Source of the DNA: an uncultured Gammaproteobacteria bacterium
GTDB lineage: Bacteria > Pseudomonadota > Gammaproteobacteria > Chromatiales > Chromatiaceae
DNA: 64,000 bases
NCBI GenBank assembly: GCA_963780725.1
Contig: CAWACV010000001.1
Span: 2,632,346 to 2,696,345, forward strand
Reading direction: 5' to 3'
The position numbers and the translations under genes were made by a program. Position 1 is the stretch's first letter; every line of letters starts with the position of its first letter. Positions 13,883 to 30,495 of this stretch are shown here, in pieces. A model generated the notes under the pieces. The model was not told where the DNA came from. It did not search any database and saw only the letters and a list, made by a program, of their open reading frames with translations.

Positions 13883-16231
13883 GTGACGCCAATGCCGAGC
13901 ACCGAATCGAACATCGTACCCCTTCGTTCGCGCGCTTGGTCCGCAACCGATGCCGAGCGACATATCGCAGCTCCCTGGTCGGCGCGCCGCGGACCAAGCG
14001 CAGCCCTTGAGCTCGCGGGGGGACTCGCCCGTCTAGCCTGGACATCGCCGGACGACGGACGCGACGCGGATCACCTGCGCGAAGAGCTTGCTCGATTCCG
14101 CGATCTTTTCGAGCGCTTGCCGGTGGCGCTTCTGGTGACGGACCTTGGCGGCACGGTGCTGCGCGCCAATGCCACGGCGGTCGCGATTCTGCAACAGGAC
14201 TCTCGTAGCCTTGTGGGAGCCGCACTATCGGACCACATCGCGCCGGAAAGCCAGGCACCGCTCGCCGAGCATCTCAGGCTTCTAAGAACAGGCACCAGCC
14301 TCAATTATTGCGAGATCGAGCTTATCGGCAGCGCCGGGGATACGCGCCCGATTTGCCTCGCAACGCTGAATGTCGGCGAAACGACCGACGGCCCGCTACG
14401 CTCCGCACTGCTCGACATCAGCGGTCTTCGCGCCATGGAGGCCGGTCTTGCGCTCGCCGCCAGCGTCGTGGAGCACACATCCGATGGGGTGATGGTCACA
14501 GATGCGGATCATCGAATTATCGCCGTCAACCCTGCATTTACTGCAATCACTGGCTACTCTGCCCATGAGATGCTCGGGCAAGTGCCCACCGTTTTTCAGA
14601 CTGGCTCCAACAATAGCGGTTTAGAACAGGAGGTAACGAGCGCACTACACGAGCGGGGCTACTGGAGAGGGGAGATCCGCAGCCGCCGCAAGGGCGGCGA
14701 GTCGTATCCGGAATGGGTCAGCGTCAGCGAAATCCGCGACGATAATGGGCTCCCGGCGCACTATGTCTGTATATTTTCGGATATGACCTCGCAGGAGGAG
14801 GCGAAAGCCCAGCTCTTCCGACTCGCTTATTTCGACACCCTCACGGCCCTCCCAAACCGCATCAGTCTGCTTGAGCAGCTTAGCCTTGCGTTAACCGCCG
14901 CAAGACGAAACAAACACCTTCTCGGGGTGTTTTATCTCGACCTCGATCGTTTCAAAGAGGTGAACGATACACTCGGTCACGCGGTGGGAGACCAACTGTT
15001 GCGATTTATTGCGCAAGAGCTTAAGCAATTGGTCCGCCAAACGGATACGGTTGCGCGCTTGGGCGGAGACGAGTTCACTATCCTGGCTCCGGATCTGAAA
15101 CGCGATCAGGCTGCCGCACAGATCGCGACCAAAATCGTTCGCCACTTCGAGCAAACCCCCTTTTGCGTCGACGGACGAGAAATCTACATACGCGTCAGTA
15201 TCGGCATCTCCCTGTTCCCAAAGGACGCAGAAGACTCGGAGGGTCTACTGGAGTGTGCGGACGCTGCCATGTACGCAGCCAAGGCGGCCGGTCGTAGCGG
15301 CTTTCGTTTCCACTCGGCAGCGATCGGCGCCAGCTACCGAAAGGAAAACGCATTGGAATCCGAGCTGCACCATGCGCTCAGCCGCAACGAGCTGAGTCTG
15401 CTTTTTCAGCCCCAATTGTGCCTGCGCAGCTTCCGCATCGTTGGCTGCGAGGTGTCGATTGGCTGGGACCGTACGGGCAATGGCATTGTCGAGTCGGATG
15501 CCTTGCTCCCATTAGCGCGCAAGACCGAGCTCTTCGTCCCCTGCGAGCATTGGGCGATGCGCTCGCTCACTGAACAGATTGGCAAATGGCCGAGCCATAT
15601 TCTGAGCGATCTGCGGTTTTCGATCGACATCTCGCCGATGCAATTGCACCCAACTCACATGGAGTCGCTACTGCACCGTCTCGAGGCCCTTGGCGGAAAG
15701 ATTGGCCACAGACTCGAGTTGGAGATCCGAGAGTCCGACCTCATGGACTGCCCCACTCAGACACTGAATATGCTCACCCGTATCGGCGACTTCGGGACAC
15801 GGCTCGCCTTGGACCATTGGGGGGTCGGCCCCACCTCGCTTCGGCAGTTGAAGCAGTTACCACTGGGTCGTGTAAAGCTCGATCCGAGCATCGTTTGCGA
15901 CATCGAAACGGATCGCGAGTCCGCAAAGCTTCTTGCAGCGATTATCGCCGTCGCACATACCCTTAAGTTGGTTGTTCTTGCCGAAGGCGTAGAGACTGCG
16001 GGCCAACTGAAGATTCTCAGAGACCACGGGTGCGACGAGGCACAAGGCGCCTTGTTCAGCCCACCCCTCTCTGCGGACATGCTGTTGGCCACATTAGAGC
16101 AATCTTCCGAGAAACCGCTCGCGGGAAACGGCAGACCTGATATCCGCGCATTTCCAGGACAATCGAATGGTTTTTTCGCGAAGTTGGCGCGCGCATGCTT
16201 ACGTCGCGATGCCCACCGGTCGCTCCGCTAA
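13883..16231 (+). CDS. PAS-PAS-GGDEF-EAL protein (intact diguanylate cyclase motifs, degenerate EAL)
   Basis: Two PAS domains (VNPAFTAITGYS); DLDRFKEVNDTLGH, RQTD I-site and GGDEF; EAL reads EVS and DDFG reads DHWG. Start codon uncertain. Confidence 0.9.
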   Translation: MTPMPSTESNIVPLRSRAWSATDAERHIAAPWSARRGPSAALELAGGLARLAWTSPDDGRDADHLREELARFRDLFERLPVALLVTDLGGTVLRANATAVAILQQDSRSLVGAALSDHIAPESQAPLAEHLRLLRTGTSLNYCEIELIGSAGDTRPICLATLNVGETTDGPLRSALLDISGLRAMEAGLALAASVVEHTSDGVMVTDADHRIIAVNPAFTAITGYSAHEMLGQVPTVFQTGSNNSGLEQEVTSALHERGYWRGEIRSRRKGGESYPEWVSVSEIRDDNGLPAHYVCIFSDMTSQEEAKAQLFRLAYFDTLTALPNRISLLEQLSLALTAARRNKHLLGVFYLDLDRFKEVNDTLGHAVGDQLLRFIAQELKQLVRQTDTVARLGGDEFTILAPDLKRDQAAAQIATKIVRHFEQTPFCVDGREIYIRVSIGISLFPKDAEDSEGLLECADAAMYAAKAAGRSGFRFHSAAIGASYRKENALESELHHALSRNELSLLFQPQLCLRSFRIVGCEVSIGWDRTGNGIVESDALLPLARKTELFVPCEHWAMRSLTEQIGKWPSHILSDLRFSIDISPMQLHPTHMESLLHRLEALGGKIGHRLELEIRESDLMDCPTQTLNMLTRIGDFGTRLALDHWGVGPTSLRQLKQLPLGRVKLDPSIVCDIETDRESAKLLAAIIAVAHTLKLVVLAEGVETAGQLKILRDHGCDEAQGALFSPPLSADMLLATLEQSSEKPLAGNGRPDIRAFPGQSNGFFAKLARACLRRDAHRSLR

Positions 16232-16847: not shown

Positions 16848-17705
16848 TTGAATGCGGAGCCCACGATGATTCCTGGTCAAGCACATTTGGCCGCGCTTGC
16901 CCGCGCCTACCCGCAACGCGAGGTGAGTCGGTTTCTTTGTATCTTCGCGGACACCGAAGAAGCGAGGCAGCACCACTATGCATTGAGATATAAGGTTTTC
17001 TGCGAGGAAACCGGATTCGAGAATCCAGACGCATTTCCCGACCGAATCGAGCGGGATCGCTACGACGCTCACGCACGCCACTTCCTCGTTTGGGACCGTC
17101 ACGAGCACCAATGGGCTGGAGCCATGCGCCTCGTAGAAGCATCTTCGACCCGACTGCCTTCCGAAGAAATCGTGGGGGCTCCCTTACTGGGACTCGATGA
17201 GCGCCGACACCGCTCCGTAGAGTTTTCCCGGCTGTGCATTCTCAGTCAATACCGCCGAACGAACCAGTCGACCTTCTATGGACTCTACCGAACCGAGGGT
17301 CAGTATCCCCGCACAGCGTGTTCTGTTCTATACAGGCAGGAAGACAACGAGGTCCTTTTGCAATTACTCGGCGCGAGCTTTGGATGGCGACCGGAAATCG
17401 AGCACTGCTACTTTATAGTCACACCTGCTCTGGCGCGAGTGCTGAGCCGTTTCGGAATTCCTCTGAGGCAGGTGGGCGGACAAGTCGAGCATCGCGGAAC
17501 GCGCATCCCCTTCCAATACGATGTTCGGGAAGCCGAGCAAGGTATGCGCGAAACCCTTGCCGGTTTCGCATCGATGACAGAGGGATCGCGCCCCTTCGAA
17601 AAATATTCCGACTTTATCGATGGCAATCTCGATGACGAGATAGCGATTCGCGCCGTCGACTCCGATTGCTTTACGTCGGGGCAGCGCGTCGCCCACGTCC
17701 AATAG
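16848..17705 (+). CDS. PEP-CTERM/exosortase-associated acyltransferase (FeeM/N-acyl amino acid synthase-like GNAT), copy 1
   Basis: LRYKVFCEETGFE, ERDRYDAHARHFL, VEFSRLCI and VEHRGTRIPF. Start may be ATG 16866. Confidence 0.8.
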   Translation: MNAEPTMIPGQAHLAALARAYPQREVSRFLCIFADTEEARQHHYALRYKVFCEETGFENPDAFPDRIERDRYDAHARHFLVWDRHEHQWAGAMRLVEASSTRLPSEEIVGAPLLGLDERRHRSVEFSRLCILSQYRRTNQSTFYGLYRTEGQYPRTACSVLYRQEDNEVLLQLLGASFGWRPEIEHCYFIVTPALARVLSRFGIPLRQVGGQVEHRGTRIPFQYDVREAEQGMRETLAGFASMTEGSRPFEKYSDFIDGNLDDEIAIRAVDSDCFTSGQRVAHVQ

Positions 17706-18069
17706 TTGCCTAGCGCCGGGTTTTTCCGGCCGAGGGGTTGCCAGCGTGCACCGCCGTTCGCACTTGGCACCCCCTCTACTCCTGACTCCTTCCCACATCC
17801 GCCCGAGCTCACTCAAGTCTAATCGCGGGATCAGACGTTGGCGCGAGCGACAGGTGCCCCTGTATAGCTGCCTCGACCAGACAGTAGTCGTCGAGACGCA
17901 CGCGCCCAACATTTCGCTTTTCACGTTCGCCAGGCAGCCGAATTCTGGAAGCGGAAGTGCCACATCTTTGGGGATCATCGATCTATGTGACAAGCTTATC
18001 GGAACTGTTGTGCTACGTCGTCCATGCTTGGTCGTACGTCTTCGTTGCAACGTCCGAAGGGATCGATCC

Positions 18070-18453
18070 ATGGAGAAAAAAGCCTGCTCGAATTGCCGCT
18101 ACAGCAACAATCCTGTAGGCTACTCAAGCGCTGACGTGCCGAGCGAAAGCGACTGCCGCTGCCCCATACCGGGATTCCCGTGGCACATCTACCACCGGTA
18201 CCGGAGCCACGAAACCGTGATGCCCACCCTTTGCGGACACTATCAGCCAGTCAGTGCCGGAAGATGCGGCGAATGCGGCAAAGAACTTGGCCCGCAACAC
18301 TTGGTGAAATATTGGGCATGCGGGGTGTTTTCGGTGATCCCATGCTGCTCTACAGACTGCTTGGCGGCACAGCAGGGGCAGTTAGATGCGGAGCGCGACG
18401 CCCTACCTCCCGTCCAAGCCTCAACCGATCCGCAGCTACGGGCTTGTCACTAA
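18070..18453 (+). CDS. Small Cys-rich putative metal-binding protein (127 aa, TRASH/zinc-finger-like)
   Basis: ATG at 18070 with AAGGG upstream; 11 Cys including CSNC, CRC, CGEC and CCSTDC. Confidence 0.55.
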   Translation: MEKKACSNCRYSNNPVGYSSADVPSESDCRCPIPGFPWHIYHRYRSHETVMPTLCGHYQPVSAGRCGECGKELGPQHLVKYWACGVFSVIPCCSTDCLAAQQGQLDAERDALPPVQASTDPQLRACH

Positions 18454-19655
18454 CTGTCCCGCCCTAGATGTTGCGTCCCGGATGATTATTTCCCCCTGCG
18501 GATTTAAGGTGGCCCCATGACCAGGACAATTTCTCCCTTAATTTAGGCTGTGTTGGTGACATCGATTCCAGCACCTTGGCGCTGCCCCGGTCAGGGCCAC
18601 TGCCGACTCACCGCAAACGGTGGCGACCCCGCCTCCACGCAGGCCCGATCCATTCCCGCCGCAACCTCAACAGGCCCAACCCGGACTTTCTCTTGAGCCA
18701 ATCCAACTCGACGCGATTTAGCCGCGGCAGGAGTCGGAACATCGGATCACCGCAACGCATTGGGACTGCGCCTGTCCGACCACCCGGATCTTGAGCCGCC
18801 CGGACAGCCGCCAGCTTTTTACGTGTCCCGTGCATTACCGGAGCGGTTCCCTCGTGCTTAGCAGTCCCGCCAAGCAGCACCACGGGCCAAGATCAACCGA
18901 GTGCTGGACGACCTGCAAGGCATTTCGGCATCGCAAGAATTCCGGATGCCGAATCTCTGCCCGAGCTCTGGCGATTGGGAAACACACAACCGAAGGCACC
19001 GCGCTAGGCTATGCTTGTTCTCGCATAATCTTGACCGAAGCCAACGCAAGAATCTTTCGACGACTGGGGGGCTGAAGCGCACGAACCACTCGGAGCCTTG
19101 ATCCGAGCTCTGGTCACCCTTGACTAACGCTTGGACAAGTTTCGTACGCGGACCCTGGCCCCCGGTCCCCGCCGGAGGGAGGAACGACGATGGACGCCCG
19201 CGGCGCGGATTGGCAGGTGGTGGCGGATACAATAACCGATCCCCCACTCGGGTGTCTAAAAAGCTGTTGACAAAGCGTCTTTTCTCCATCGCTCTTTGTC
19301 TTTGTCGCGGGTTATCGACCAAGCTAAAGCACAGAGCAACCGCAACCTTGCGACAAAGTGATGCATATATCGGATTCTTACGGCCATCTAGCGTTGGCAC
19401 CCTCCGCACTCGCCTTTCCGATGCTGCCAATCCATGGCTACTCGGATTATCGGGTATTGATGACCCTATCCTTACTTGGGGTCTATTCAGACGCAGACTC
19501 CACCGACACCTATGAGCTTCGCATCTTCAGGCTTCACGACTCTTCAACAGCTCATACACCACTCCCGTGCCGCCCCCGGCTTCGCCAACAATCCACCACA
19601 TGGACATCGCCGGCGGTTGTGGTATTGGGGCAGCGATATGTGAAGGTTCCCATAT

Positions 19656-20531
19656 ATGCCGTCTTTTGACTATTCCGTAGCCTTCTCCAGAAACATCGGT
19701 TGGATTACCGAAAACGAAGCATCCGTCCTACGGACCAAGCGCGTTGCAATCGCTGGCCTTGGCGGTGTCGGAGGTAGCCATCTCCTAACGCTGACTCGGT
19801 TCGGAGTCGGGGCATTCAATCTCGCGGAATTCGATGTCTTCGATTTGGCTAATTTTAATCGCCAAGCAGGGGCCACGTTACACAGCATCGGCAAACCTAA
19901 ACTGGATGTGATGGCAGAGATCGCCCTCGACATTAACCCCGAGCTTGACATACGAAAATTTTCTGCAGGTATCGATCCCGCCAATATCGATCGGTTTCTC
20001 GCCGATGTCGATCTCTATGTCGATAGTCTCGATTTTTTCGCTGTGCGTATCCGCCGATTAGTATTCGCACGATGTGCCGCATTGGCCATACCCGCAATCA
20101 CGGCCGCACCCCTGGGCATGGGGGTCTCATTCTTAGCATTCCTTCCTGGCAGGATGACGTTCGAAGAGTACTTTCGACTGGAAGGATACGACGAGGAGGA
20201 ACAGCTGCTGCGATTCTTGATAGGATTATCCCCACGGATGCTCCAGACCCGCTATCTCGTAGATCGGACGCGGCTCGACCTCAATGCCCGCAAGGGACCG
20301 TCAACGCCGGTGGGCGTGGATCTCTGTGCGGGCGTCGCCGGGGCAAACGCGGTCAAGATCCTGTTGGCACGCGGCCAAGTGGACAGCGCACCCACTGCTC
20401 TGCACTTCGACGCTTACCGCAATCGCTTCGTCAAGACCTGGCGACCGGGCGGAAACGCAAGTTTCCTCCATCGCTGGCTACTCCGATCAGCCCGGCGCAA
20501 GATGGGCATCCATGCCAATCCTTCGCATTAA
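19656..20531 (+). CDS. ThiF family adenylyltransferase (E1-like)
   Basis: AFSRNIGW, AGLGGVGG, FDLANFNRQ and GKPK; no Zn-binding CxxC pairs. Confidence 0.9.
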   Translation: MPSFDYSVAFSRNIGWITENEASVLRTKRVAIAGLGGVGGSHLLTLTRFGVGAFNLAEFDVFDLANFNRQAGATLHSIGKPKLDVMAEIALDINPELDIRKFSAGIDPANIDRFLADVDLYVDSLDFFAVRIRRLVFARCAALAIPAITAAPLGMGVSFLAFLPGRMTFEEYFRLEGYDEEEQLLRFLIGLSPRMLQTRYLVDRTRLDLNARKGPSTPVGVDLCAGVAGANAVKILLARGQVDSAPTALHFDAYRNRFVKTWRPGGNASFLHRWLLRSARRKMGIHANPSH

Positions 20532-20546
20532 TCGAGGTGCGAGAAA

Positions 20547-21626
20547 ATGAGCAAGACCCTCAGCGACCGAATGACACGCATCCTGGATGCTGCTCGGTGG
20601 GCACCAAGCGGCGATAATACACAGCCCTGGCGATTCGAGGTGGAGGACGACGATACGGTAATTATACATGCATCGGACACCCGTCACTGGTGCGTCTACG
20701 ATCTGGAAGGCCATGCAAGCCAGATCGCAGTCGGTGCCCTTTTAGAGAACATCGTCATCGCCGCGTCCCGCGAGGAGTTGGAGACAGATCTGCGGCTGCT
20801 TCCCGACGGCACCGACACACATCCGCGAGTGCGTGCGCGCTTTCGGGCCTCCAACGCCATTACCCCAGATCCCTTATTTGAAATCATCGCGCAACGGTCA
20901 ACTCAAAGGCGCGCTCTGTCATGGTCCGCTCTTCGCCCCGCCGATCGAATGGCGCTTGAAGGCGCCCCGGGTCCCGGTTATCGTGTCTTCTGGGTGGAGG
21001 GTGTCCGCCAGAAGTGGCGCTTGGCAAGACTGTTGTTTCTCAATGCCTATATTCGCCTTACGATCGAAGAAGCATATCAGGTGCACAAGCGCATCATCGC
21101 ATGGGACTCAGGCTTTAGCGAGGACCGCATTCCCGATCGTGCGCTCGGCCTGGACCCTTTCGCATTGGCGATCATGAAATGGGCGATGGCCAGTTGGAGG
21201 CGAGTCAGCTTTATGAACCGATATCTGGGCGCGACTCTGCTTCCTCGTCTTGAGCTCGACGTGCTGCCGAGCATGGGTTGCGCAGCCCATTTTTTCATCG
21301 TCGCAGACAAGCCCCCGATCGAGCTTCAGGATTATTTCAACGGCGGCCGTGCCATGCAGCGCTTCTGGCTCACCGCAACCGCCCAGGGGTTACAGTTTCA
21401 ACCGCAAATGACGCCGATAATATTCTCTGAGTATACGAAGCGGTCGCTCCCGTTCACTGCAAGCGCCGAGGCGCGAAGACAGGCCGCCCGACTGAGGGCC
21501 GGCCTGTGCGAGCTCATTGGCGAATCGGTGCTCGACCGTGTCGTGTTTGCTGGTCGCGTCGGCTACGGTCCCCAGCCTCGCTGGCGCTCCCTGCGGCTTC
21601 CGCTGCCGCGGCTGCGCGCAAGCTAG
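20547..21626 (+). CDS. Nitroreductase-fold flavoprotein
   Basis: AARWAPSGDNTQPWRF, RSTQRR and GRAMQRFWLTATAQGLQFQP; own SD (GAGG). Confidence 0.88.
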   Translation: MSKTLSDRMTRILDAARWAPSGDNTQPWRFEVEDDDTVIIHASDTRHWCVYDLEGHASQIAVGALLENIVIAASREELETDLRLLPDGTDTHPRVRARFRASNAITPDPLFEIIAQRSTQRRALSWSALRPADRMALEGAPGPGYRVFWVEGVRQKWRLARLLFLNAYIRLTIEEAYQVHKRIIAWDSGFSEDRIPDRALGLDPFALAIMKWAMASWRRVSFMNRYLGATLLPRLELDVLPSMGCAAHFFIVADKPPIELQDYFNGGRAMQRFWLTATAQGLQFQPQMTPIIFSEYTKRSLPFTASAEARRQAARLRAGLCELIGESVLDRVVFAGRVGYGPQPRWRSLRLPLPRLRAS

Positions 21627-24592: not shown

Positions 24593-24712
24593 ATACGGAG
24601 TTGGGAATATTGGAACCTACCGAAAGCGAGCCGCGGATACCTCGAGCCCGTTGGCTAACGGCCTTCGATGCGGAAACAAGACGGACTCGCCTACTTAAGA
24701 CCCTGGTGTAAG

Positions 24713-25936
24713 ATGGCCGTGAGCATTGCCCACAACGCGCGCCGGCGAATTCTGTTTGTCGCAGAGGCGGTGACCCTCGCTCATGTCGCCAGACCGCGGG
24801 TACTTGCGAATGCGCTCGATCCGATCCGCTACGAGATACATTTTGCCGCCGCACCTACGTTCGACGTTGCGCTGAATGGACTAGCTGCCGCGCGCTGGCC
24901 ACTGCGCAGCATCGAGCCGGGGCGTTTCATGAAGGCATTAGCTCAGGGCGCTCCCATTTACGACCGAGAGACGCTGGATCGGTATGTCGCAGACGATCTC
25001 GACCTCTTGGATCAAGTGCGTCCAGACCTGGTCATAGGCGACTTTCGGCTTTCGCTCGCTATCAGCGCCCCGCTCCGCCGCATCCCCTATTTCGCCCTGT
25101 CAAACGCTTATTGGAGCCCGTTTGCAGACATTGCCCGCTGGCCCATTCCGGACCTACCGCCCGCTCGACTGCTCGGCGAACGCTTCACTGCGGCAGTATT
25201 CAATTGGATCCGACCGCTGGTTTTTGGAATGCACGGGGCGGCGCTGAACGCACTTCGGCGACGACACGGCCTCACACCCCTCGGCGATATGCGGGACGCC
25301 TACACTTGGGGAGACGAGACGCTGTACCTCGATGTACCGCAACTGATTCCGATGCGACTCTTACCCCCAAACCACCATTTCATTGGCCCCGTCGTATGGG
25401 AGCCCGAAGCGCCGCTGCCCGAGTGGTGGGGGGATCTAACTCGGAGCCGACCGACCCTGTACGTCACATTAGGCTCTTCGGGTCCAGCTACGCGGTTACC
25501 GGATCTCCTGGAAGGGCTCGCCACATTGCCCGCAAACATCGTTGTGGCAACCGCTGGTCGTTTGGCCCCCGGCGATTTGCCGCCCGGGATCTGGGGCGCG
25601 GACTACCTACCGGGAAGTCGCGCGGCAAGACGCGCCGATCTGGTCGTCTCAAACGGCGGTAGCCCCACTGGCTACCAGGCGCTCTCCGAAGGCGTGCCAG
25701 TGCTCGGCATCGCCTCCAACCTAGACCAGCATTTGGCCATGCATCATATTGCAGCGGCCGGTGCCGGACGGCTGCTCCGCAGCGAGCGGGCCGACCCCCG
25801 GACCTTAAGTGCCCTCGTGGAGCAGATGCTTACGACCGACCGCTATCGAATCGCGGCCCAACGAGTCCAGGGTTGGATGAGCAACTATCGGCCTGGGGAA
25901 CGACTGGAAGAGCGGATCGCGGCGCGGATATCGTAG
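24713..25936 (+). CDS. GT1/MGT-family UDP-glycosyltransferase
   Basis: ILFVAEAVTLAHVARP, RPDLVIGDF, LYVTLGSSG and SNGGSPTGYQALSEGVP..NLDQ. Start uncertain (24668/24713/24719). Confidence 0.85.
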   Translation: MAVSIAHNARRRILFVAEAVTLAHVARPRVLANALDPIRYEIHFAAAPTFDVALNGLAAARWPLRSIEPGRFMKALAQGAPIYDRETLDRYVADDLDLLDQVRPDLVIGDFRLSLAISAPLRRIPYFALSNAYWSPFADIARWPIPDLPPARLLGERFTAAVFNWIRPLVFGMHGAALNALRRRHGLTPLGDMRDAYTWGDETLYLDVPQLIPMRLLPPNHHFIGPVVWEPEAPLPEWWGDLTRSRPTLYVTLGSSGPATRLPDLLEGLATLPANIVVATAGRLAPGDLPPGIWGADYLPGSRAARRADLVVSNGGSPTGYQALSEGVPVLGIASNLDQHLAMHHIAAAGAGRLLRSERADPRTLSALVEQMLTTDRYRIAAQRVQGWMSNYRPGERLEERIAARIS

Positions 25937-26016: not shown

Positions 26017-26670
26017 GTGATCCCGAATCGACGCCTATCCTCTCCCGAATCAACGGATTGGACCAGATACTATCGAAAGCACGACGTCCCCGAGTTTATC
26101 GTTAACGCGCTACTCAAAGAATATCTGCTGTGCATAAGAAAATACTGCAACAAGACCCATGGGCTCACAATCGCGGAAGTGGGCGGAGCGGACAGTTGTT
26201 TCTTCGCAACACTGGACCGAGAGCTCGACATCGACAAGTATATCGTAGTAGACAACAACGAATACGGACTTGAGCTTACCCGAGAGAAGGTGAAATCGGA
26301 TAAGCTCTCCTTAATGTACGGCAGTATCTTTAACGCACATGCACTGAATGTGTCGGCCGACATCGTTATTAGCGGCGGACTCATTGAGCACTTCGCCCCC
26401 GAGGAAACCAGGCAAAGCATCCTCGGACACTTCTCTTTGGCTGCACCCGGCGGATTAGTCGTCATCTCTTGCCCCACTCCAACATGGATCTATTGGTCGT
26501 TTAGGTCCCTGCTCGAGTCGATCGGAAAATTTCCGCCGGTATTCGAGCGTCCGTTGAAACTGGACGAGGTCACAACCGTACTCCAGGAGAAGGGCAGTCT
26601 GGTCGCTGCCTACCGGCTCTGGACGACGATCCTCACCCAAATGATTACGGCAACTCAGAACGTCCGATAA
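26017..26670 (+). CDS. Class I SAM-dependent methyltransferase
   Basis: AEVGGADS motif I, VVDNN, DIVISGGLIEHF and APGG. Confidence 0.8.
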   Translation: MIPNRRLSSPESTDWTRYYRKHDVPEFIVNALLKEYLLCIRKYCNKTHGLTIAEVGGADSCFFATLDRELDIDKYIVVDNNEYGLELTREKVKSDKLSLMYGSIFNAHALNVSADIVISGGLIEHFAPEETRQSILGHFSLAAPGGLVVISCPTPTWIYWSFRSLLESIGKFPPVFERPLKLDEVTTVLQEKGSLVAAYRLWTTILTQMITATQNVR

Positions 26671-26782: not shown

Positions 26783-27682
26783 TTATGCCTTGCGCCGACG
26801 GGCAGCGGCCCCGATCAGACCGAAAGAAGAGGCCATGAGCAGCAGCGTAGTAGGCTCTGGAACCGCGAAGGTCTCGGCCGCGGTGATGGAGAAGACCTGA
26901 CGCCCACCGCCGGCAGTCGGGGTACCGTCCCACATCACAGCGGGACGGAGATTTTGCAGTGGCTGAGTGAGGTTTCCGGCGATGCGCATGCTAAGCAGCT
27001 TACCGCCGGTTCCATTATTCACCGGCAGGTTGTCGAGATTGAGATAGGCGCCGTTATAGTCTGTAATTTCGAACAGCAGATCGAAGGCACCAGTACCTGT
27101 ACCTGGAATAATGGCGGTAAAGGAGGACACGTTACTGACCAACGTGGCCTCGAGAATGTTCGTACCGTTACCGAAGCCAGAGACTGTACCAGCTCCACTG
27201 CCGCTCACCGCCTTACCGCCGTCGGACAGATCGTCATAGTAGAGCGTCAGGTTCGGCGTCGATGTCTGTCCGCCGACTGGGTCGACGAATGTCACCGTAC
27301 CCCCTCCGAAGGCATTTGGCGTAAAGTCGAACACCACGTCGTCGAAGCGGACGGTCTTAGTCAGCTCGAAGGCTCCAGCGGCCCCGTTGTTTCCGTTCAG
27401 CCCAGGCACGCTGACGATCGAGCCATCAGCCGTCAACGAAGCAACCACAAACTGGGTGACGAAGGTGTGCACATCCCCGACCACAAAAGGCGGCCCTACG
27501 CCCAAATCGACGCCCGTGGCGGCAGCATCGGACCAGATGTCGGAAAAGATCCAACCGCCGGCGCCAGCGCCGCCGGTCGGGTCAAGGCCGATCGTTGGCT
27601 GCGGAACGGCCAATGCGTTTCCGGCGATGGCCATACCGACGACGGCCGCCAGGCTTGCCGCAAGGGACGAATATTTAGTCAT
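26783..27682 (-). CDS. PEP-CTERM sorting-domain surface protein (possibly PepA-like)
   Basis: ATG at 27682 with AGGAG SD; signal peptide ending ALA; Gly/Thr/Asp/Phe-rich beta-type body; C-terminal VPEP + TM + RRRK. Confidence 0.92.
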   Translation of the reverse strand: MTKYSSLAASLAAVVGMAIAGNALAVPQPTIGLDPTGGAGAGGWIFSDIWSDAAATGVDLGVGPPFVVGDVHTFVTQFVVASLTADGSIVSVPGLNGNNGAAGAFELTKTVRFDDVVFDFTPNAFGGGTVTFVDPVGGQTSTPNLTLYYDDLSDGGKAVSGSGAGTVSGFGNGTNILEATLVSNVSSFTAIIPGTGTGAFDLLFEITDYNGAYLNLDNLPVNNGTGGKLLSMRIAGNLTQPLQNLRPAVMWDGTPTAGGGRQVFSITAAETFAVPEPTTLLLMASSFGLIGAAARRRKA

Positions 27683-27800
27683 GACGAAAACTCCTGGTAA
27701 ATTTAAGGGTGTTCGCTCTACCGACGGCGAAGGCAACCTAATTATCTCGTTCGACAGCAATGACAAGATTGCCGCTCTGGCGAACTTGTCGCTTAAGGTA

Positions 27801-27816
27801 AGCAAAGCATGTGCCA
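27801..27816 (-). promoter_or_regulatory. Sigma-54 (-24/-12) promoter of the PEP-CTERM gene
   Basis: Minus strand TGGCAC-ATGCT-TTGCT is an exact match to TGGCAC-N5-TTGCW. Confidence 0.85.
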
Positions 27817-27889
27817 TAAATAAAATATTTTTATAAAACAGACTTTTATATACTATCGAGCAATGTGCGCTACCGAGGCGACCGATGAA

Positions 27890-27908
27890 GTGTAAAAAAT
27901 ATTGACAC
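27890..27908. promoter_or_regulatory. Putative enhancer (PrsR-type activator site) upstream of the sigma-54 promoter
   Basis: Imperfect palindrome GTGTAAAAAATATTGACAC ~75-90 bp upstream of the -24 box, separated by an AT-rich (IHF-like) tract. Confidence 0.6.
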
Positions 27909-28676
27909 CGGCGGGGCTCAAAGCCTTCGAACTGCTCCGAACCATCCATCGAGACGAGCGATCTTGCGAACCATACGGTAAGGTCCCAGGGATGCGACTC
28001 GACCGGACCCCGAAATTTCGACGATAAGCAATCTTGCGCATTAGATAAGGATTAAAGAAAGACGGGCGAAGCGAAGCGCAAGACCGACACGGCGGCCTTC
28101 GCAGCCATAAGCGGGCTTGGTGGAGATCCGGGGGAACGGGCTCGGGCAGGACCGCGGGGGCCACCCGGTGCAGGTCGGGCGGTGGAAGCGGGAGATCCAA
28201 GGGCAGACCGAGTCGCCGCTCGCGAAGAAGTGCGAGCCGATAATGGAAGGTGGCCCCGCGGATGGGACCGGCTGTACTGCAGGACCGACAGGTGCAAGGT
28301 CGAGGTGGGCTGGTTGCAAAAGGTCCGGGCTAAGCCCGTTAATATCTGGCGCGCCACCCGCAGCTGGCGTGCATCCCGATCCTAACCCACACCGCAGCGG
28401 CATCCGATCGGCAGGTCTGTTATAAAGAGCAGATAAGCCAAGGAAAAACTGTATGTATGTCGGGGGATTTATCTGCAGCACTCGGCAGCCACACATAACA
28501 GGCAATTACCGGCGCGGAATACCGCCGATGCCCCGTTTCTTGGAGTCGGCCCAAGATGTCGGGGCTTCGCAGAATCCGCATCGAGCCTTCCCGTGCTCCC
28601 CCACCTTGCAGCGACGCACCCCGATGCAAGGCGCGAGCCGTGGGTAGTTCTGCGGTGCATCGCCGATCATGACGAG

Positions 28677-29537
28677 ATGAATCTCATGTATTACCGTTTG
28701 GTAGCCAAAAACCGAATTTTCGAAGCCAACCGGACCATCGTCGAGTACGAAATCCGTCCGGGCAACACCGTCACCTTCGTTGCCGAGGTGGACCTCACGC
28801 AGGTACAGCGTCTTCGCACGACCCAAGAGGCATCCAAAGCATCTTATACCGCTTTCGTGGTCAAAGCGGTCGCCTTAGCGCTGCGGCGCTACCCCTATGC
28901 CAATCGACGGGTCTGCAGACGCGGATGGTGGCCGTTCGCAGGGCACTGCCTACAAGCATTCGAGCGCTGCGATATCGCCGTGGCCGCGGAGCGCGACATT
29001 CCGGACATCGAATACTGCGCCTTCGTGGATATCGTCCGCGATGCCGACGGCGCCGGTCTATCCGACATCGACCGACAGTTGAGCGCGCTGGCCACCTGCG
29101 ACGTCCATACGAACGAGCAGTGGCGATCCTTCAGCGGTGTGGTGACACGATTTCCGCACTGGCTGTCTACCCACCTTATTCGCTTGCCTTACTACTTTCC
29201 CGGATTTTGGCTTAAATTCAGGGGCGCGTCTGTCCTGATCAGCTCTCCGGCAAAATACGGTGTCGATAGTGTGGTGGCAACATGGAGCTGGCCGCTGGGG
29301 GTATCTTTCGGATTCGTGAAGGACCGCCCCGTCGTCCGGGACGGCGCCGTCGTTCCCTGCCCCACCTTCAATCTGGTGGTGAATTTCGACCGCCGGGTGA
29401 TGGCAGGCGCGCAGGGTGCGCGCTTCTTTCGCGAGATTGTCCGGATACTGGAGAGCGCCGAGTCCGAGATGGCAGCTTTTTTGCGGGAGTCTGGTACGGA
29501 GACGACCGCGAAGGACCCCGCAGCGACAGGGAAGTAG
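28677..29537 (+). CDS. Stand-alone 2-oxoacid dehydrogenase E2-type acyltransferase catalytic domain
   Basis: EVDLT, SYTAFVVKAVALAL..YPYAN, DIAVA, VKDRPVVRDG and FDRRVMAGAQGARF; no lipoyl domain. Start uncertain. Confidence 0.75.
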   Translation: MNLMYYRLVAKNRIFEANRTIVEYEIRPGNTVTFVAEVDLTQVQRLRTTQEASKASYTAFVVKAVALALRRYPYANRRVCRRGWWPFAGHCLQAFERCDIAVAAERDIPDIEYCAFVDIVRDADGAGLSDIDRQLSALATCDVHTNEQWRSFSGVVTRFPHWLSTHLIRLPYYFPGFWLKFRGASVLISSPAKYGVDSVVATWSWPLGVSFGFVKDRPVVRDGAVVPCPTFNLVVNFDRRVMAGAQGARFFREIVRILESAESEMAAFLRESGTETTAKDPAATGK

Positions 29538-29721: not shown

Positions 29722-30495
29722 CTAGGGTTCGCTCGAATTTACGCCCCTCTCGAGCTCGCTGGAAATCCAGCAATAGAGCTCGCGCAGTTCCGGCGCCATA
29801 TCCCGAACGAACTCGCGCGTATCCGTGACATAGACGGCGCGGATGCCGTGATGATCCACATCCCGCCCCATACGACGGAAGACCATTCCCGAACGCTTCA
29901 ACAGCCGGGGCAGGAACGGCTCCATGACAGCGAACATGTAAGGTCGCTGCAACAGCTCCGCCATTGCGTTGCCGGCAAGCATCAGGGCCACAGAGATCAG
30001 GGGAAAGGTCCGGCGCTCGCTGTCCGAGAGGCTTAAGGAAGCGATCTCGCCGAAACGAGTCAGCGACTCGCCGGAGCGACGCCGGAATGCGCCGTCCACG
30101 GCAAATCGAGATGCCTCGCAGATCATATCGCGGGGCGCTGTAAAATCTGCCATTGCGACAGGATCCAGGCTTGCGGTGCAACACTTTTCATAAGGGAGCG
30201 GCTGGGCTACGCCATTCGCCGAGGCAGAGCACATACGAACGCATCCGGCTGCCATTCCCGATGCGACATGGACAATCAGACAGTGGGCGGACATATCGTC
30301 GAGCTCGTCCGTTTCCATGCGATCCGGGAAGCGGTCCGCGGGCTCGTATCCGAATTCTTCGCAATACACCCGGTAGCGTATCCGATAGGTCTCCTGACAA
30401 TCGCGACTCGTGAGTGCCTGACGAACCGCGAAGTACCGCTGGAAATAATCGAGTGGTTGCTTGGATTCTACCATTGTCTTGGGCCGGTCATTCAC
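29722..30495 (-). CDS. PEP-CTERM/exosortase-associated acyltransferase (FeeM-like GNAT), copy 2
   Basis: IRYRVYCEEFGYEP, ETDELD..SAHCLI, CEASRFAVDGAFRRRSGE, MEPFLPRLL and DHHGIRA. Confidence 0.88.
   Translation of the reverse strand: MNDRPKTMVESKQPLDYFQRYFAVRQALTSRDCQETYRIRYRVYCEEFGYEPADRFPDRMETDELDDMSAHCLIVHVASGMAAGCVRMCSASANGVAQPLPYEKCCTASLDPVAMADFTAPRDMICEASRFAVDGAFRRRSGESLTRFGEIASLSLSDSERRTFPLISVALMLAGNAMAELLQRPYMFAVMEPFLPRLLKRSGMVFRRMGRDVDHHGIRAVYVTDTREFVRDMAPELRELYCWISSELERGVNSSEP

What the first reader, a model, noticed from the sequence alone, without database searches (positions are those of the whole stretch)
19656..21626. Split but in-frame ThiF + nitroreductase: an OxzB-like oxazolone synthetase one codon from fusion
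Seen: the two starts are 891 bp apart (same frame), separated only by TAA at 20529-20531 and five sense codons containing a GAGG SD. Known: OxzB is a ThiF-nitroreductase di-domain enzyme that adenylates, cyclises and oxidises N-acyl amino acids. Inference: a two-subunit version or fusion/fission intermediate; substrate and product may differ from the tyrosine/phenylalanine oxazolones because tailoring genes follow.
Basis: partly seen in the sequence, partly recalled or inferred. Interest (0 to 1): 0.72.

Follow-up and report, generated by a model that had tools for sequence, protein, structure and literature searches.

The report
Two-gene oxazolone-type lipid enzyme pair
These two neighbouring genes encode an ATP-using ThiF-family enzyme and a flavin oxidase that likely turn fatty-acylated amino acids into oxazolone-type lipids; the two-gene layout is already known and common, so the in-frame stop between them is ordinary.

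Summary
The anatomy is as described: ThiF (19656-20531), TAA, five codons holding a GAGGT ribosome site, then an Acg-fold flavin oxidase (20547-21626), same frame. The enzyme assignment is well supported, though OxzB itself could not be aligned. The genome's only two TIGR03694 N-acyltransferases flank the pair inside a PEP-CTERM island. The novelty claim fails. The split form is in print (Mtb TyzB/TyzC, characterised; Massilia, Thalassotalea, Stieleria). Among homologous loci 49 are split and 43 fused; 14 of 49 split pairs are in frame (chance gives one third) and 12 of 49 are also one stop from fusion. The nearest relatives of both proteins are stand-alone, so this is a stable two-gene lineage, neither a sequencing error nor a fusion intermediate. 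Fusion state has switched repeatedly in the family (AU p=0.0015 against one fused clade); direction is unresolved. Of the tailoring genes, the glycosyltransferase recurs (19 of 40 long loci), the methyltransferase-like gene does not (0 of 40). The product is untested. This scan met the family before on other DNA (four notes). Verdict: new member of a known kind, low interest.

The parts
19656..20531 (+). ThiF-family adenylyltransferase, predicted N-acyl amino acid cyclase (TyzB / OxzB N-domain type), 291 aa
   Evidence: PF00899 E 5e-37; NCBIfam PRK08223 398 bits over cut-off 266, MoeB/ThiF/TcdA models far under cut-off; GxGGxG, NxNRQ, K82, D123, D126 invariant in 47 of 47 aligned homologues; D126 aligns with MoeB D130
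20529..20531 (+). TAA stop of the ThiF gene, followed by T
   Evidence: sequence; nearest ThiF homologues (72-79%) end at 292-295 aa
20534..20538 (+). Shine-Dalgarno-like GAGGT, 8 nt before the oxidase ATG
   Evidence: sequence; duplex energy -7.2 kcal/mol
20547..21626 (+). Stand-alone flavin-dependent oxidase (FDO, Acg-type nitroreductase fold), predicted desaturase (TyzC / OxzB C-domain type), 359 aa
   Evidence: PF00881; best PDB sequence hit Acg 2YMV; AlphaFold2 model pLDDT 92.9, Foldseek top hit 2YMV E 2.5e-12, TM 0.67/0.73; RWAPSGDNTQPW motif invariant in 44 of 44
16848..17705 (+). PEP-CTERM/exosortase-associated N-acyltransferase (FeeM-like), candidate substrate supplier 1
   Evidence: TIGR03694 147 bits over cut-off 112; one of only two over cut-off in the genome
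29722..30495 (-). Second PEP-CTERM/exosortase-associated N-acyltransferase, candidate substrate supplier 2
   Evidence: TIGR03694 214 bits; its homologues (65-74%) lie directly upstream of ThiF in same-genus loci L064, L154, L155
21680..24592 (+). PrsT, TPR protein of the XrtA/PEP-CTERM system; next gene downstream, 53 nt after the oxidase
   Evidence: TIGR02917 494 bits over cut-off 312
24668..25936 (+). Family-1-type (EryCIII-like) glycosyltransferase, possible tailoring enzyme
   Evidence: PF06722 E 2e-12; homologue in 19 of 40 related loci of 8 kb or more and 6 of 20 genome stretches
26017..26670 (+). Methyltransferase-like ORF, not conserved with the pair
   Evidence: weak Pfam hits under cut-off; no homologue in 40 and in 20 related loci
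26783..27949 (-). PEP-CTERM protein (true start probably downstream of the sigma-54-like site at 27816)
   Evidence: PF07589; motif scan
28593..29537 (+). Stand-alone 2-oxoacid-dehydrogenase-type acyltransferase domain, recurs in a few related clusters
   Evidence: PF00198 E 3e-18; homologue in 3 of 40 long loci and 1 of 20 stretches

Best explanation
The two genes are separately translated and likely form the two-gene (TyzB/TyzC-type) version of the oxazolone pathway, predicted to cyclise and desaturate an N-acyl amino acid made by a neighbouring acyltransferase. Shown: two ORFs, a ribosome-site-like motif before the second, ThiF and Acg-fold domains with their conserved motifs, two TIGR03694 acyltransferases in the same island, and 62-69% identity of the ThiF to ThiF-nitroreductase fusion proteins. 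Inferred from OxzAB, TyzACB and TrzAS: the acyltransferase joins a fatty acyl group to an aromatic amino acid; the ThiF enzyme adenylates the carboxylate with ATP and the amide oxygen closes the oxazolone ring; the FMN oxidase uses O2 to put in the 2,3 double bond. The product that accumulates would be an acyl-oxazolone or its hydrolysed N-acyl dehydroamino acid, perhaps glycosylated. The stop codon marks a long-standing two-gene lineage in a family where fusion and fission have happened several times.
For: Domain calls (11, 12, 31, 32, 47, 53). 1604 longer proteins match the ThiF at E<=1e-30; the best 120 are 544-698 aa, nearly all carry both Pfam domains, at 62-69% identity. Spacing between the WRPxG and WAPSG motifs is 53 residues read through the stop, inside the 46-54 range of 115 of 116 fusions where both motifs were found. 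Both architectures are common: 53 split and 45 fused of 150 loci. Nearest homologues are stand-alone: ThiF 79, 77, 72% at 292-295 aa, six members of one cluster all 292 aa, some on 98-160 kb contigs; oxidase 67-71% at 359 aa. In the oxidase tree the window sits in starred sets of 8, 9 and 20 rows, all unfused; in the 38-row ThiF tree in a starred set of 4 unfused and an unstarred set of 10. The genome's only two acyltransferases over the TIGR03694 cut-off flank the pair, and acyltransferase-ThiF-oxidase is the gene order in same-genus loci. Literature: TyzB cyclises and TyzC desaturates as separate proteins (PMC10404671); ThiF genes of this cluster are adjacent or fused to an FDO (PMC12856293).
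Against: No characterised enzyme (OxzB, TyzB, TyzC, TrzS) could be fetched and aligned, so kinship to them rests on domain pairing, fold and context. No acyltransferase lies directly upstream here (1.95 kb gap with an IS3 remnant; no acyltransferase remnant found). The ThiF has Glu58 where 46 of 46 aligned homologues have Asp (4 of 237 held homologues with the motif share Glu). In Stieleria, Massilia and Thalassotalea no oxazolone was seen and the ThiF role is called enigmatic (PMC12479983). Five near-complete relatives keep the ThiF with no match to the oxidase profile (control), so the two do not always act together. The larger 123-row ThiF tree left the window's clade in an open fork among mostly fused proteins, so direction of change is unresolved.
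Confidence: 0.8

Rival explanations
1. The activated N-acyl amino acid (adenylate or oxazolone) is not an end product but an acyl donor that lipidates exopolysaccharide or PEP-CTERM surface proteins.
For: Location in a PEP-CTERM island with PrsT and a PEP-CTERM gene; PrsT-like hits in 21 of 40 long loci, several only 25-30% and possibly generic TPR proteins; the same link on a Nitratidesulfovibrio plasmid; ThiF kept without the oxidase in five relatives; oxazolones hydrolyse within hours.
Against: All characterised systems give free small molecules; no transfer or export enzyme was identified; the exosortase genes lie on other contigs; co-location with PEP-CTERM genes is already known for the acyltransferases without such a role being shown.
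Confidence: 0.12
2. The TAA is an assembly error or a very recent nonsense change in a fused OxzB-like gene.
For: 16 of 24 same-family loci are fused at about 650-670 aa; read-through length and linker spacing match fusions.
Against: An ATG with a good SD-like motif sits exactly where stand-alone homologues start; nearest homologues of both halves are unfused; all 9 other same-genus genomes with the ThiF have it unfused (open frames 260-434 aa).
Confidence: 0.03
3. The pair is a fusion intermediate or makes a fusion protein by stop-codon read-through.
For: Same frame, one stop; 14 of 28 non-overlapping split pairs are in frame, slightly over one third (p=0.07).
Against: In-frame share over all split pairs is 14 of 49, as chance gives; close relatives use other frames and gaps (59, 98, 102, 116 nt); TAA followed by T is a strong bacterial stop context (recalled, not tested).
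Confidence: 0.03
4. The ThiF protein is a MoeB/ThiF/TcdA-type enzyme of cofactor or tRNA metabolism beside an unrelated nitroreductase.
For: Best solved-structure sequence hits are MoeB, ThiF and TcdA; some databases name homologues MoeY or thiamine biosynthesis protein.
Against: Scores of 57-80 bits against cut-offs of 152-449 for those families, 398 over 266 for PRK08223; only two cysteines and no CxxC pairs in the sequence; two other ThiF-family genes exist in the genome; the partner is an Acg-fold oxidase that is fused to this ThiF in many genomes.
Confidence: 0.02

Closest known systems
TyzB (Rv2338c) and TyzC (Rv2337c) of the Mtb tyzACB tyrazolone pathway (PMC10404671)
   Same: Separate adjacent ThiF cyclase and single-domain Acg-like flavin oxidase of similar sizes (318 and 372 aa against 291 and 359), acyltransferase nearby but not in the same operon.
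   Different: Gammaproteobacterial host; TIGR03694 acyltransferases and PEP-CTERM context; sequence identity and FDO subcluster could not be tested; product unknown.
OxzA/OxzB oxazolone synthetase of Pseudoalteromonas rubra and four other proteobacteria (bioRxiv 10.1101/2020.06.11.147165)
   Same: ThiF then nitroreductase domain in the same order; N-acyltransferase associated; some oxzB genes cluster with glycosyltransferases.
   Different: OxzB is one polypeptide and oxzA usually lies directly upstream; here two genes and displaced acyltransferases.
NAS + ThiF + nitroreductase clusters of Massilia kyonggiensis, Thalassotalea sp. PP2-459 and Stieleria (PMC12479983)
   Same: Split, tightly spaced ThiF and nitroreductase genes in proteobacteria; Massilia and Duganella pairs found here are 54-56% (ThiF) and 49-51% (oxidase) identical with 4-nt overlaps; Stieleria cluster holds a PEP-CTERM gene (PMC7293339).
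   Different: Those strains yield N-acyl dehydrotyrosines with no oxazolone detected; the producers' own proteins were not compared.
TrzS (Rv1355c) tryptazolone synthetase (PMC12856293)
   Same: Same two activities predicted.
   Different: Fused; a separate ThiF subcluster; the window's proteins score 69.5 and 124.5 bits against the PRK07877 cut-off of 476.

Membership tests
Two-gene oxazolone pathway, TyzB/TyzC type | Separate, adjacent, co-oriented ThiF and FDO genes | tested here: met
Two-gene oxazolone pathway, TyzB/TyzC type | ThiF domain with intact nucleotide-binding and adenylation motifs | tested here: met
   GxGGxG, NxNRQ, K82, D123, D126 invariant; D126 aligns with MoeB D130; one conservative change, Glu58 for Asp
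Two-gene oxazolone pathway, TyzB/TyzC type | Single-domain FDO of about 340-370 aa with the Acg-type fold | tested here: met
   359 aa; model pLDDT 92.9; Foldseek top hit Acg 2YMV E 2.5e-12, next hit 8e-5
Two-gene oxazolone pathway, TyzB/TyzC type | N-acyl amino acid synthase gene in the neighbourhood | tested here: met
   two TIGR03694 genes 1.95 kb upstream and 8.1 kb downstream, the genome's only two over cut-off; not in the same operon
Two-gene oxazolone pathway, TyzB/TyzC type | Falls in the published network subclusters (FDO-A23 or A8; ThiF subcluster 2) | not testable with these tools
   no tool returned TyzB, TyzC or OxzB; the supplement searched lists no members
Two-gene oxazolone pathway, TyzB/TyzC type | ATP-dependent cyclisation and O2-dependent desaturation of N-acyl amino acids | not testable with these tools
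   needs an assay
OxzB di-domain oxazolone synthetase | ThiF and nitroreductase domains in one polypeptide | tested here: not met
   TAA at 20529-20531 and own start for the second gene
OxzB di-domain oxazolone synthetase | oxzA directly upstream in a two-gene operon | tested here: not met
   no acyltransferase or remnant in 17600-19700; relatives do have it
TrzS / Rv1355c family (PRK07877) | Whole-protein score over the curated cut-off of 476 bits | tested here: not met
   69.5 and 124.5 bits
MoeB / thiamine ThiF / TcdA | Score over the curated cut-offs of those equivalogs | tested here: not met
   57-80 bits against 152-449
NCBIfam PRK08223 (uncharacterised ThiF equivalog) | Score over 266 bits | tested here: met
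   398 bits; the N-domains of four fused homologues also pass, 425-451 bits

The most novel reading that the evidence does not exclude
In Chromatiaceae-like bacteria the PEP-CTERM island makes a glycosylated N-acyl oxazolone or dehydroamino-acid lipid, or uses the reactive oxazolone to lipidate the exopolysaccharide or PEP-CTERM proteins of the cell surface; the ThiF cyclase is the core step and the oxidase an optional, fusable module. Closely related split and fused pairs (62-69% identity) would also give a natural test of whether fusion fixes the order of cyclisation and desaturation, a question left open in PMC12856293.
Probability: 0.2. Interest if true: 0.55.

Novelty: new member of a known kind. 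Interest (0 to 1): 0.18.

Why it matters
As it stands it adds one more two-gene member to a widespread, published family, and the in-frame stop carries no special meaning. Its modest use: the family survey shows fusion and fission switching repeatedly among proteins over 60% identical, which offers matched split and fused enzymes for asking whether fusion imposes reaction order or channels a labile intermediate; and the recurring glycosyltransferase and PEP-CTERM context point to an uncharacterised product and to the open question of what these lipids do. Neither point is special to this window.

Tried and rejected
Raw reads: no sequencing run was listed for the stretch, so the TAA was not checked in reads. 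Complex prediction of the two proteins gave no answer (score 0.00, controls not folded): neither support nor evidence against. ESM Atlas did not answer. OxzB, TyzB and TyzC sequences were not returned by any search: the genome scan with the single protein gave 7 loci, Oxalobacteraceae and one unplaced gammaproteobacterium; plasmids gave 5 distant records; no Mycobacterium was named among the control genomes that rang. The Nat Chem Biol version of the OxzB paper and Craig et al. 2011 are not held; the preprint's supplement with the OxzB accession list is closed and bears on membership. Sigma-70 and terminator scans gave counts at shuffle level (4 against 5.1; 13 against 14.6). Methyltransferase-like ORF showed no similarity to two neighbours in related clusters. 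No photosynthetic reaction-centre gene was found in the 82% complete genome, which shows nothing about absence. The careful 123-row ThiF tree did not finish; the quick tree was used. Fission from a fused ancestor was considered: suggested by an open fork, not; left unresolved, as the trees are unrooted. Literature searches for oxazolone with PEP-CTERM (1 listing, not read) and tyrazolone with glycosyltransferase (2 listings) found no study of the tailored product.

Full report
Observation. GAGGT at 20534-20538 lies 8 nt before that ATG and pairs with a recalled anti-SD motif better than the regions before the ThiF and PrsT starts (-7.2 against -3.5 and -3.9 kcal/mol). The second gene therefore has what looks like its own start.

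What the proteins are. The first is PF00899 ThiF and passes only NCBIfam PRK08223 (398 bits, cut-off 266); MoeB, thiamine ThiF and TcdA models score 57-80 bits, far under their cut-offs. The glycine loop, NxNRQ, K82, D123 and D126 are invariant in 47 of 47 aligned sequences, and D126 aligns with MoeB D130. Glu58 replaces an Asp kept by the other 46; 4 of 237 held homologues with the motif share Glu. The second protein is a nitroreductase-family flavoprotein whose best PDB sequence hit is Acg; its AlphaFold2 model (pLDDT 92.9) matches Acg 2YMV at E 2.5e-12, TM 0.67/0.73, with the next hit at 8e-5. That is the single-chain FDO type to which TyzC and the OxzB oxidase domain belong (PMC10404671). 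The best 120 of 1604 longer matches to the ThiF are 544-698 aa, 62-69% identical, and nearly all carry both Pfam domains.

Context. Two TIGR03694 N-acyltransferases, the only two over cut-off in this 82% complete genome, flank the pair at 16848-17705 and 29722-30495. Downstream come PrsT, an EryCIII-like glycosyltransferase, a weak methyltransferase-like ORF, a PEP-CTERM protein and a lone 2-oxoacid-dehydrogenase-type acyltransferase domain. The island has lower GC (55-61%) than its flanks (63-71%). Same-genus loci have the order acyltransferase-ThiF-oxidase (L064, L154, L155); the window lacks that upstream copy, and the gap holds an IS3 remnant and no acyltransferase trace. Among 40 related loci of 8 kb or more (some near-duplicates) the glycosyltransferase recurs in 19, PrsT-like proteins in 21, acyltransferases in 10, the methyltransferase in none; in 20 genome stretches that I chose the counts are 6, 11, 12 and 0. 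The nearest named homologues are from Chromatiaceae, so the host is probably of that family (inferred).

Is the in-frame stop special? No. Of 150 loci classified (153 fetched, 3 repeats dropped) 53 are split, 45 fused, 27 show only the oxidase (many end at a contig edge), 17 only the ThiF, 8 have the genes on opposite strands. After removing identical pairs and the window, 49 are split and 43 fused; 14 of 49 are in frame (p=0.55 against one third) and 12 of 49 have a single stop between the genes. Against my reading: among the 28 non-overlapping split pairs 14 are in frame (p=0.07), and 16 of the 24 other loci from the order-wide sample are fused (5 split, 1 at a contig edge, 2 on opposite strands). 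Start-to-start spans are alike for fused and split pairs (medians 882 and 879 nt), so the match in length to fusions follows from tight packing.

Error or intermediate? The nearest ThiF homologues (79, 77, 72%) are 292-295 aa, and six members of one such cluster are all 292 aa, some on contigs of 98-160 kb. The nearest oxidases (67-71%) are 359 aa and start where the window's does; those two searches were limited by length, but the best fusion reaches only 69% to the ThiF, and the length-blind locus searches agree: the top oxidase matches L002, L003, L064 and L065 are split, and none of 9 other same-genus genomes with the ThiF has it fused. In the oxidase tree (105 rows, quick method) the window lies in starred sets of 8, 9 and 20 unfused rows, and starred branches force at least 7 changes of fusion state. 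In a 38-row ThiF tree that I chose around the window, it lies in a starred set of 4 and an unstarred set of 10 unfused rows, and a single fused clade is rejected (AU p=0.0015). The 123-row ThiF tree left the clade in an open fork among mostly fused proteins. So the split is stable in this lineage and the family switches often; which came first is not resolved.

Mechanism. By analogy with OxzAB (preprint, parts 1-3 of 5 read), TyzACB (PMC10404671, parts 1-3 of 6, passages and a supplement search) and TrzAS (PMC12856293, parts 1-2 of 7, passages and Discussion): an acyltransferase makes an N-acyl aromatic amino acid, the ThiF enzyme adenylates and cyclises it, and the FMN oxidase desaturates it with O2. 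All three steps are inferred here. In other split systems only N-acyl dehydrotyrosines were found (PMC12479983, passages), so the product may be the open-chain form. Five near-complete relatives keep the ThiF with no match to the oxidase profile (positive control), which suggests that the two proteins are modules and need not be an obligate complex.

What is known. The two-gene form is characterised in Mtb and described in Massilia, Thalassotalea and Stieleria; PMC12856293 states that the ThiF gene is directly adjacent to or fused to an FDO gene; the OxzB preprint notes clustering with glycosyltransferases; the link of the acyltransferases to PEP-CTERM systems is cited in PMC7293339 (passages; the original paper was not held). 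A ThiF review was seen in passages and PMC3684757 in passages. The locus fails the OxzB test (not one polypeptide), meets the testable features of the TyzB/TyzC type, and could not be aligned with any characterised member. Four earlier notes of this scan describe the same family on other DNA; they agree and are not counted as evidence.

Verdict. Observation confirmed, function probably right, novelty not supported: a new member of a known kind, interest 0.18. The remaining open points are the product, the role of the glycosyltransferase and of the PEP-CTERM link, and whether fusion fixes reaction order; they apply to the whole family.

Noticed in passing
window 18070-18453 (+): A 127-aa cysteine-rich ORF with no Pfam hit follows the first acyltransferase; homologues at 50-55% follow the same acyltransferase in L064, L154 and L155. 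Possibly a small metal-binding partner.
   Followed up: partly
window about 18504-18712: Two abutting pieces 80-85% identical to two parts of an IS3-like element, about 1 kb apart in the element, which has about five copies in the genome: an internally deleted IS remnant where relatives have an acyltransferase gene.
   Followed up: partly
window 27802-27816 and 27891-27907 (-): A sigma-54-type site and an upstream TGT-N11-ACA palindrome precede the PEP-CTERM gene, as expected for PrsR-type control (motifs recalled); the real start codon is probably downstream of 27816.
   Followed up: partly
G143, G123, G599, G603, G002 (L147-L150, L048, L168-L170): Near-complete relatives keep this ThiF (with the acyltransferase upstream in the three stretches examined) but show no match to the oxidase profile; in L168 a UbiE-like methyltransferase follows instead.
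   Followed up: partly
L024, L025, L098, L122, L130, L133, L135, L142: Eight loci carry the ThiF and oxidase genes on opposite strands.
   Followed up: no
L063 7065-10034 (NC_005863.1): A 989-aa protein on the Nitratidesulfovibrio vulgaris plasmid holds the ThiF and oxidase matches inside an XrtA/PEP-CTERM locus; its size fits the PRK14852 family.
   Followed up: no
L155 11998-15361: A second, different ThiF-family gene with an amidohydrolase and further acyltransferases lies beside the pair in same-genus genome G607.
   Followed up: no
L019 (G032) and L023 (G150): One fused gene has an internal TAG in the oxidase domain and one pair has a frame-shifted or truncated oxidase: possible decay or assembly errors.
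   Followed up: no
window 13883-16231 (+): PAS-GGDEF-EAL protein directly upstream of the island; PMC12856293 notes c-di-GMP genes beside trzAS. Conservation not tested.
   Followed up: no
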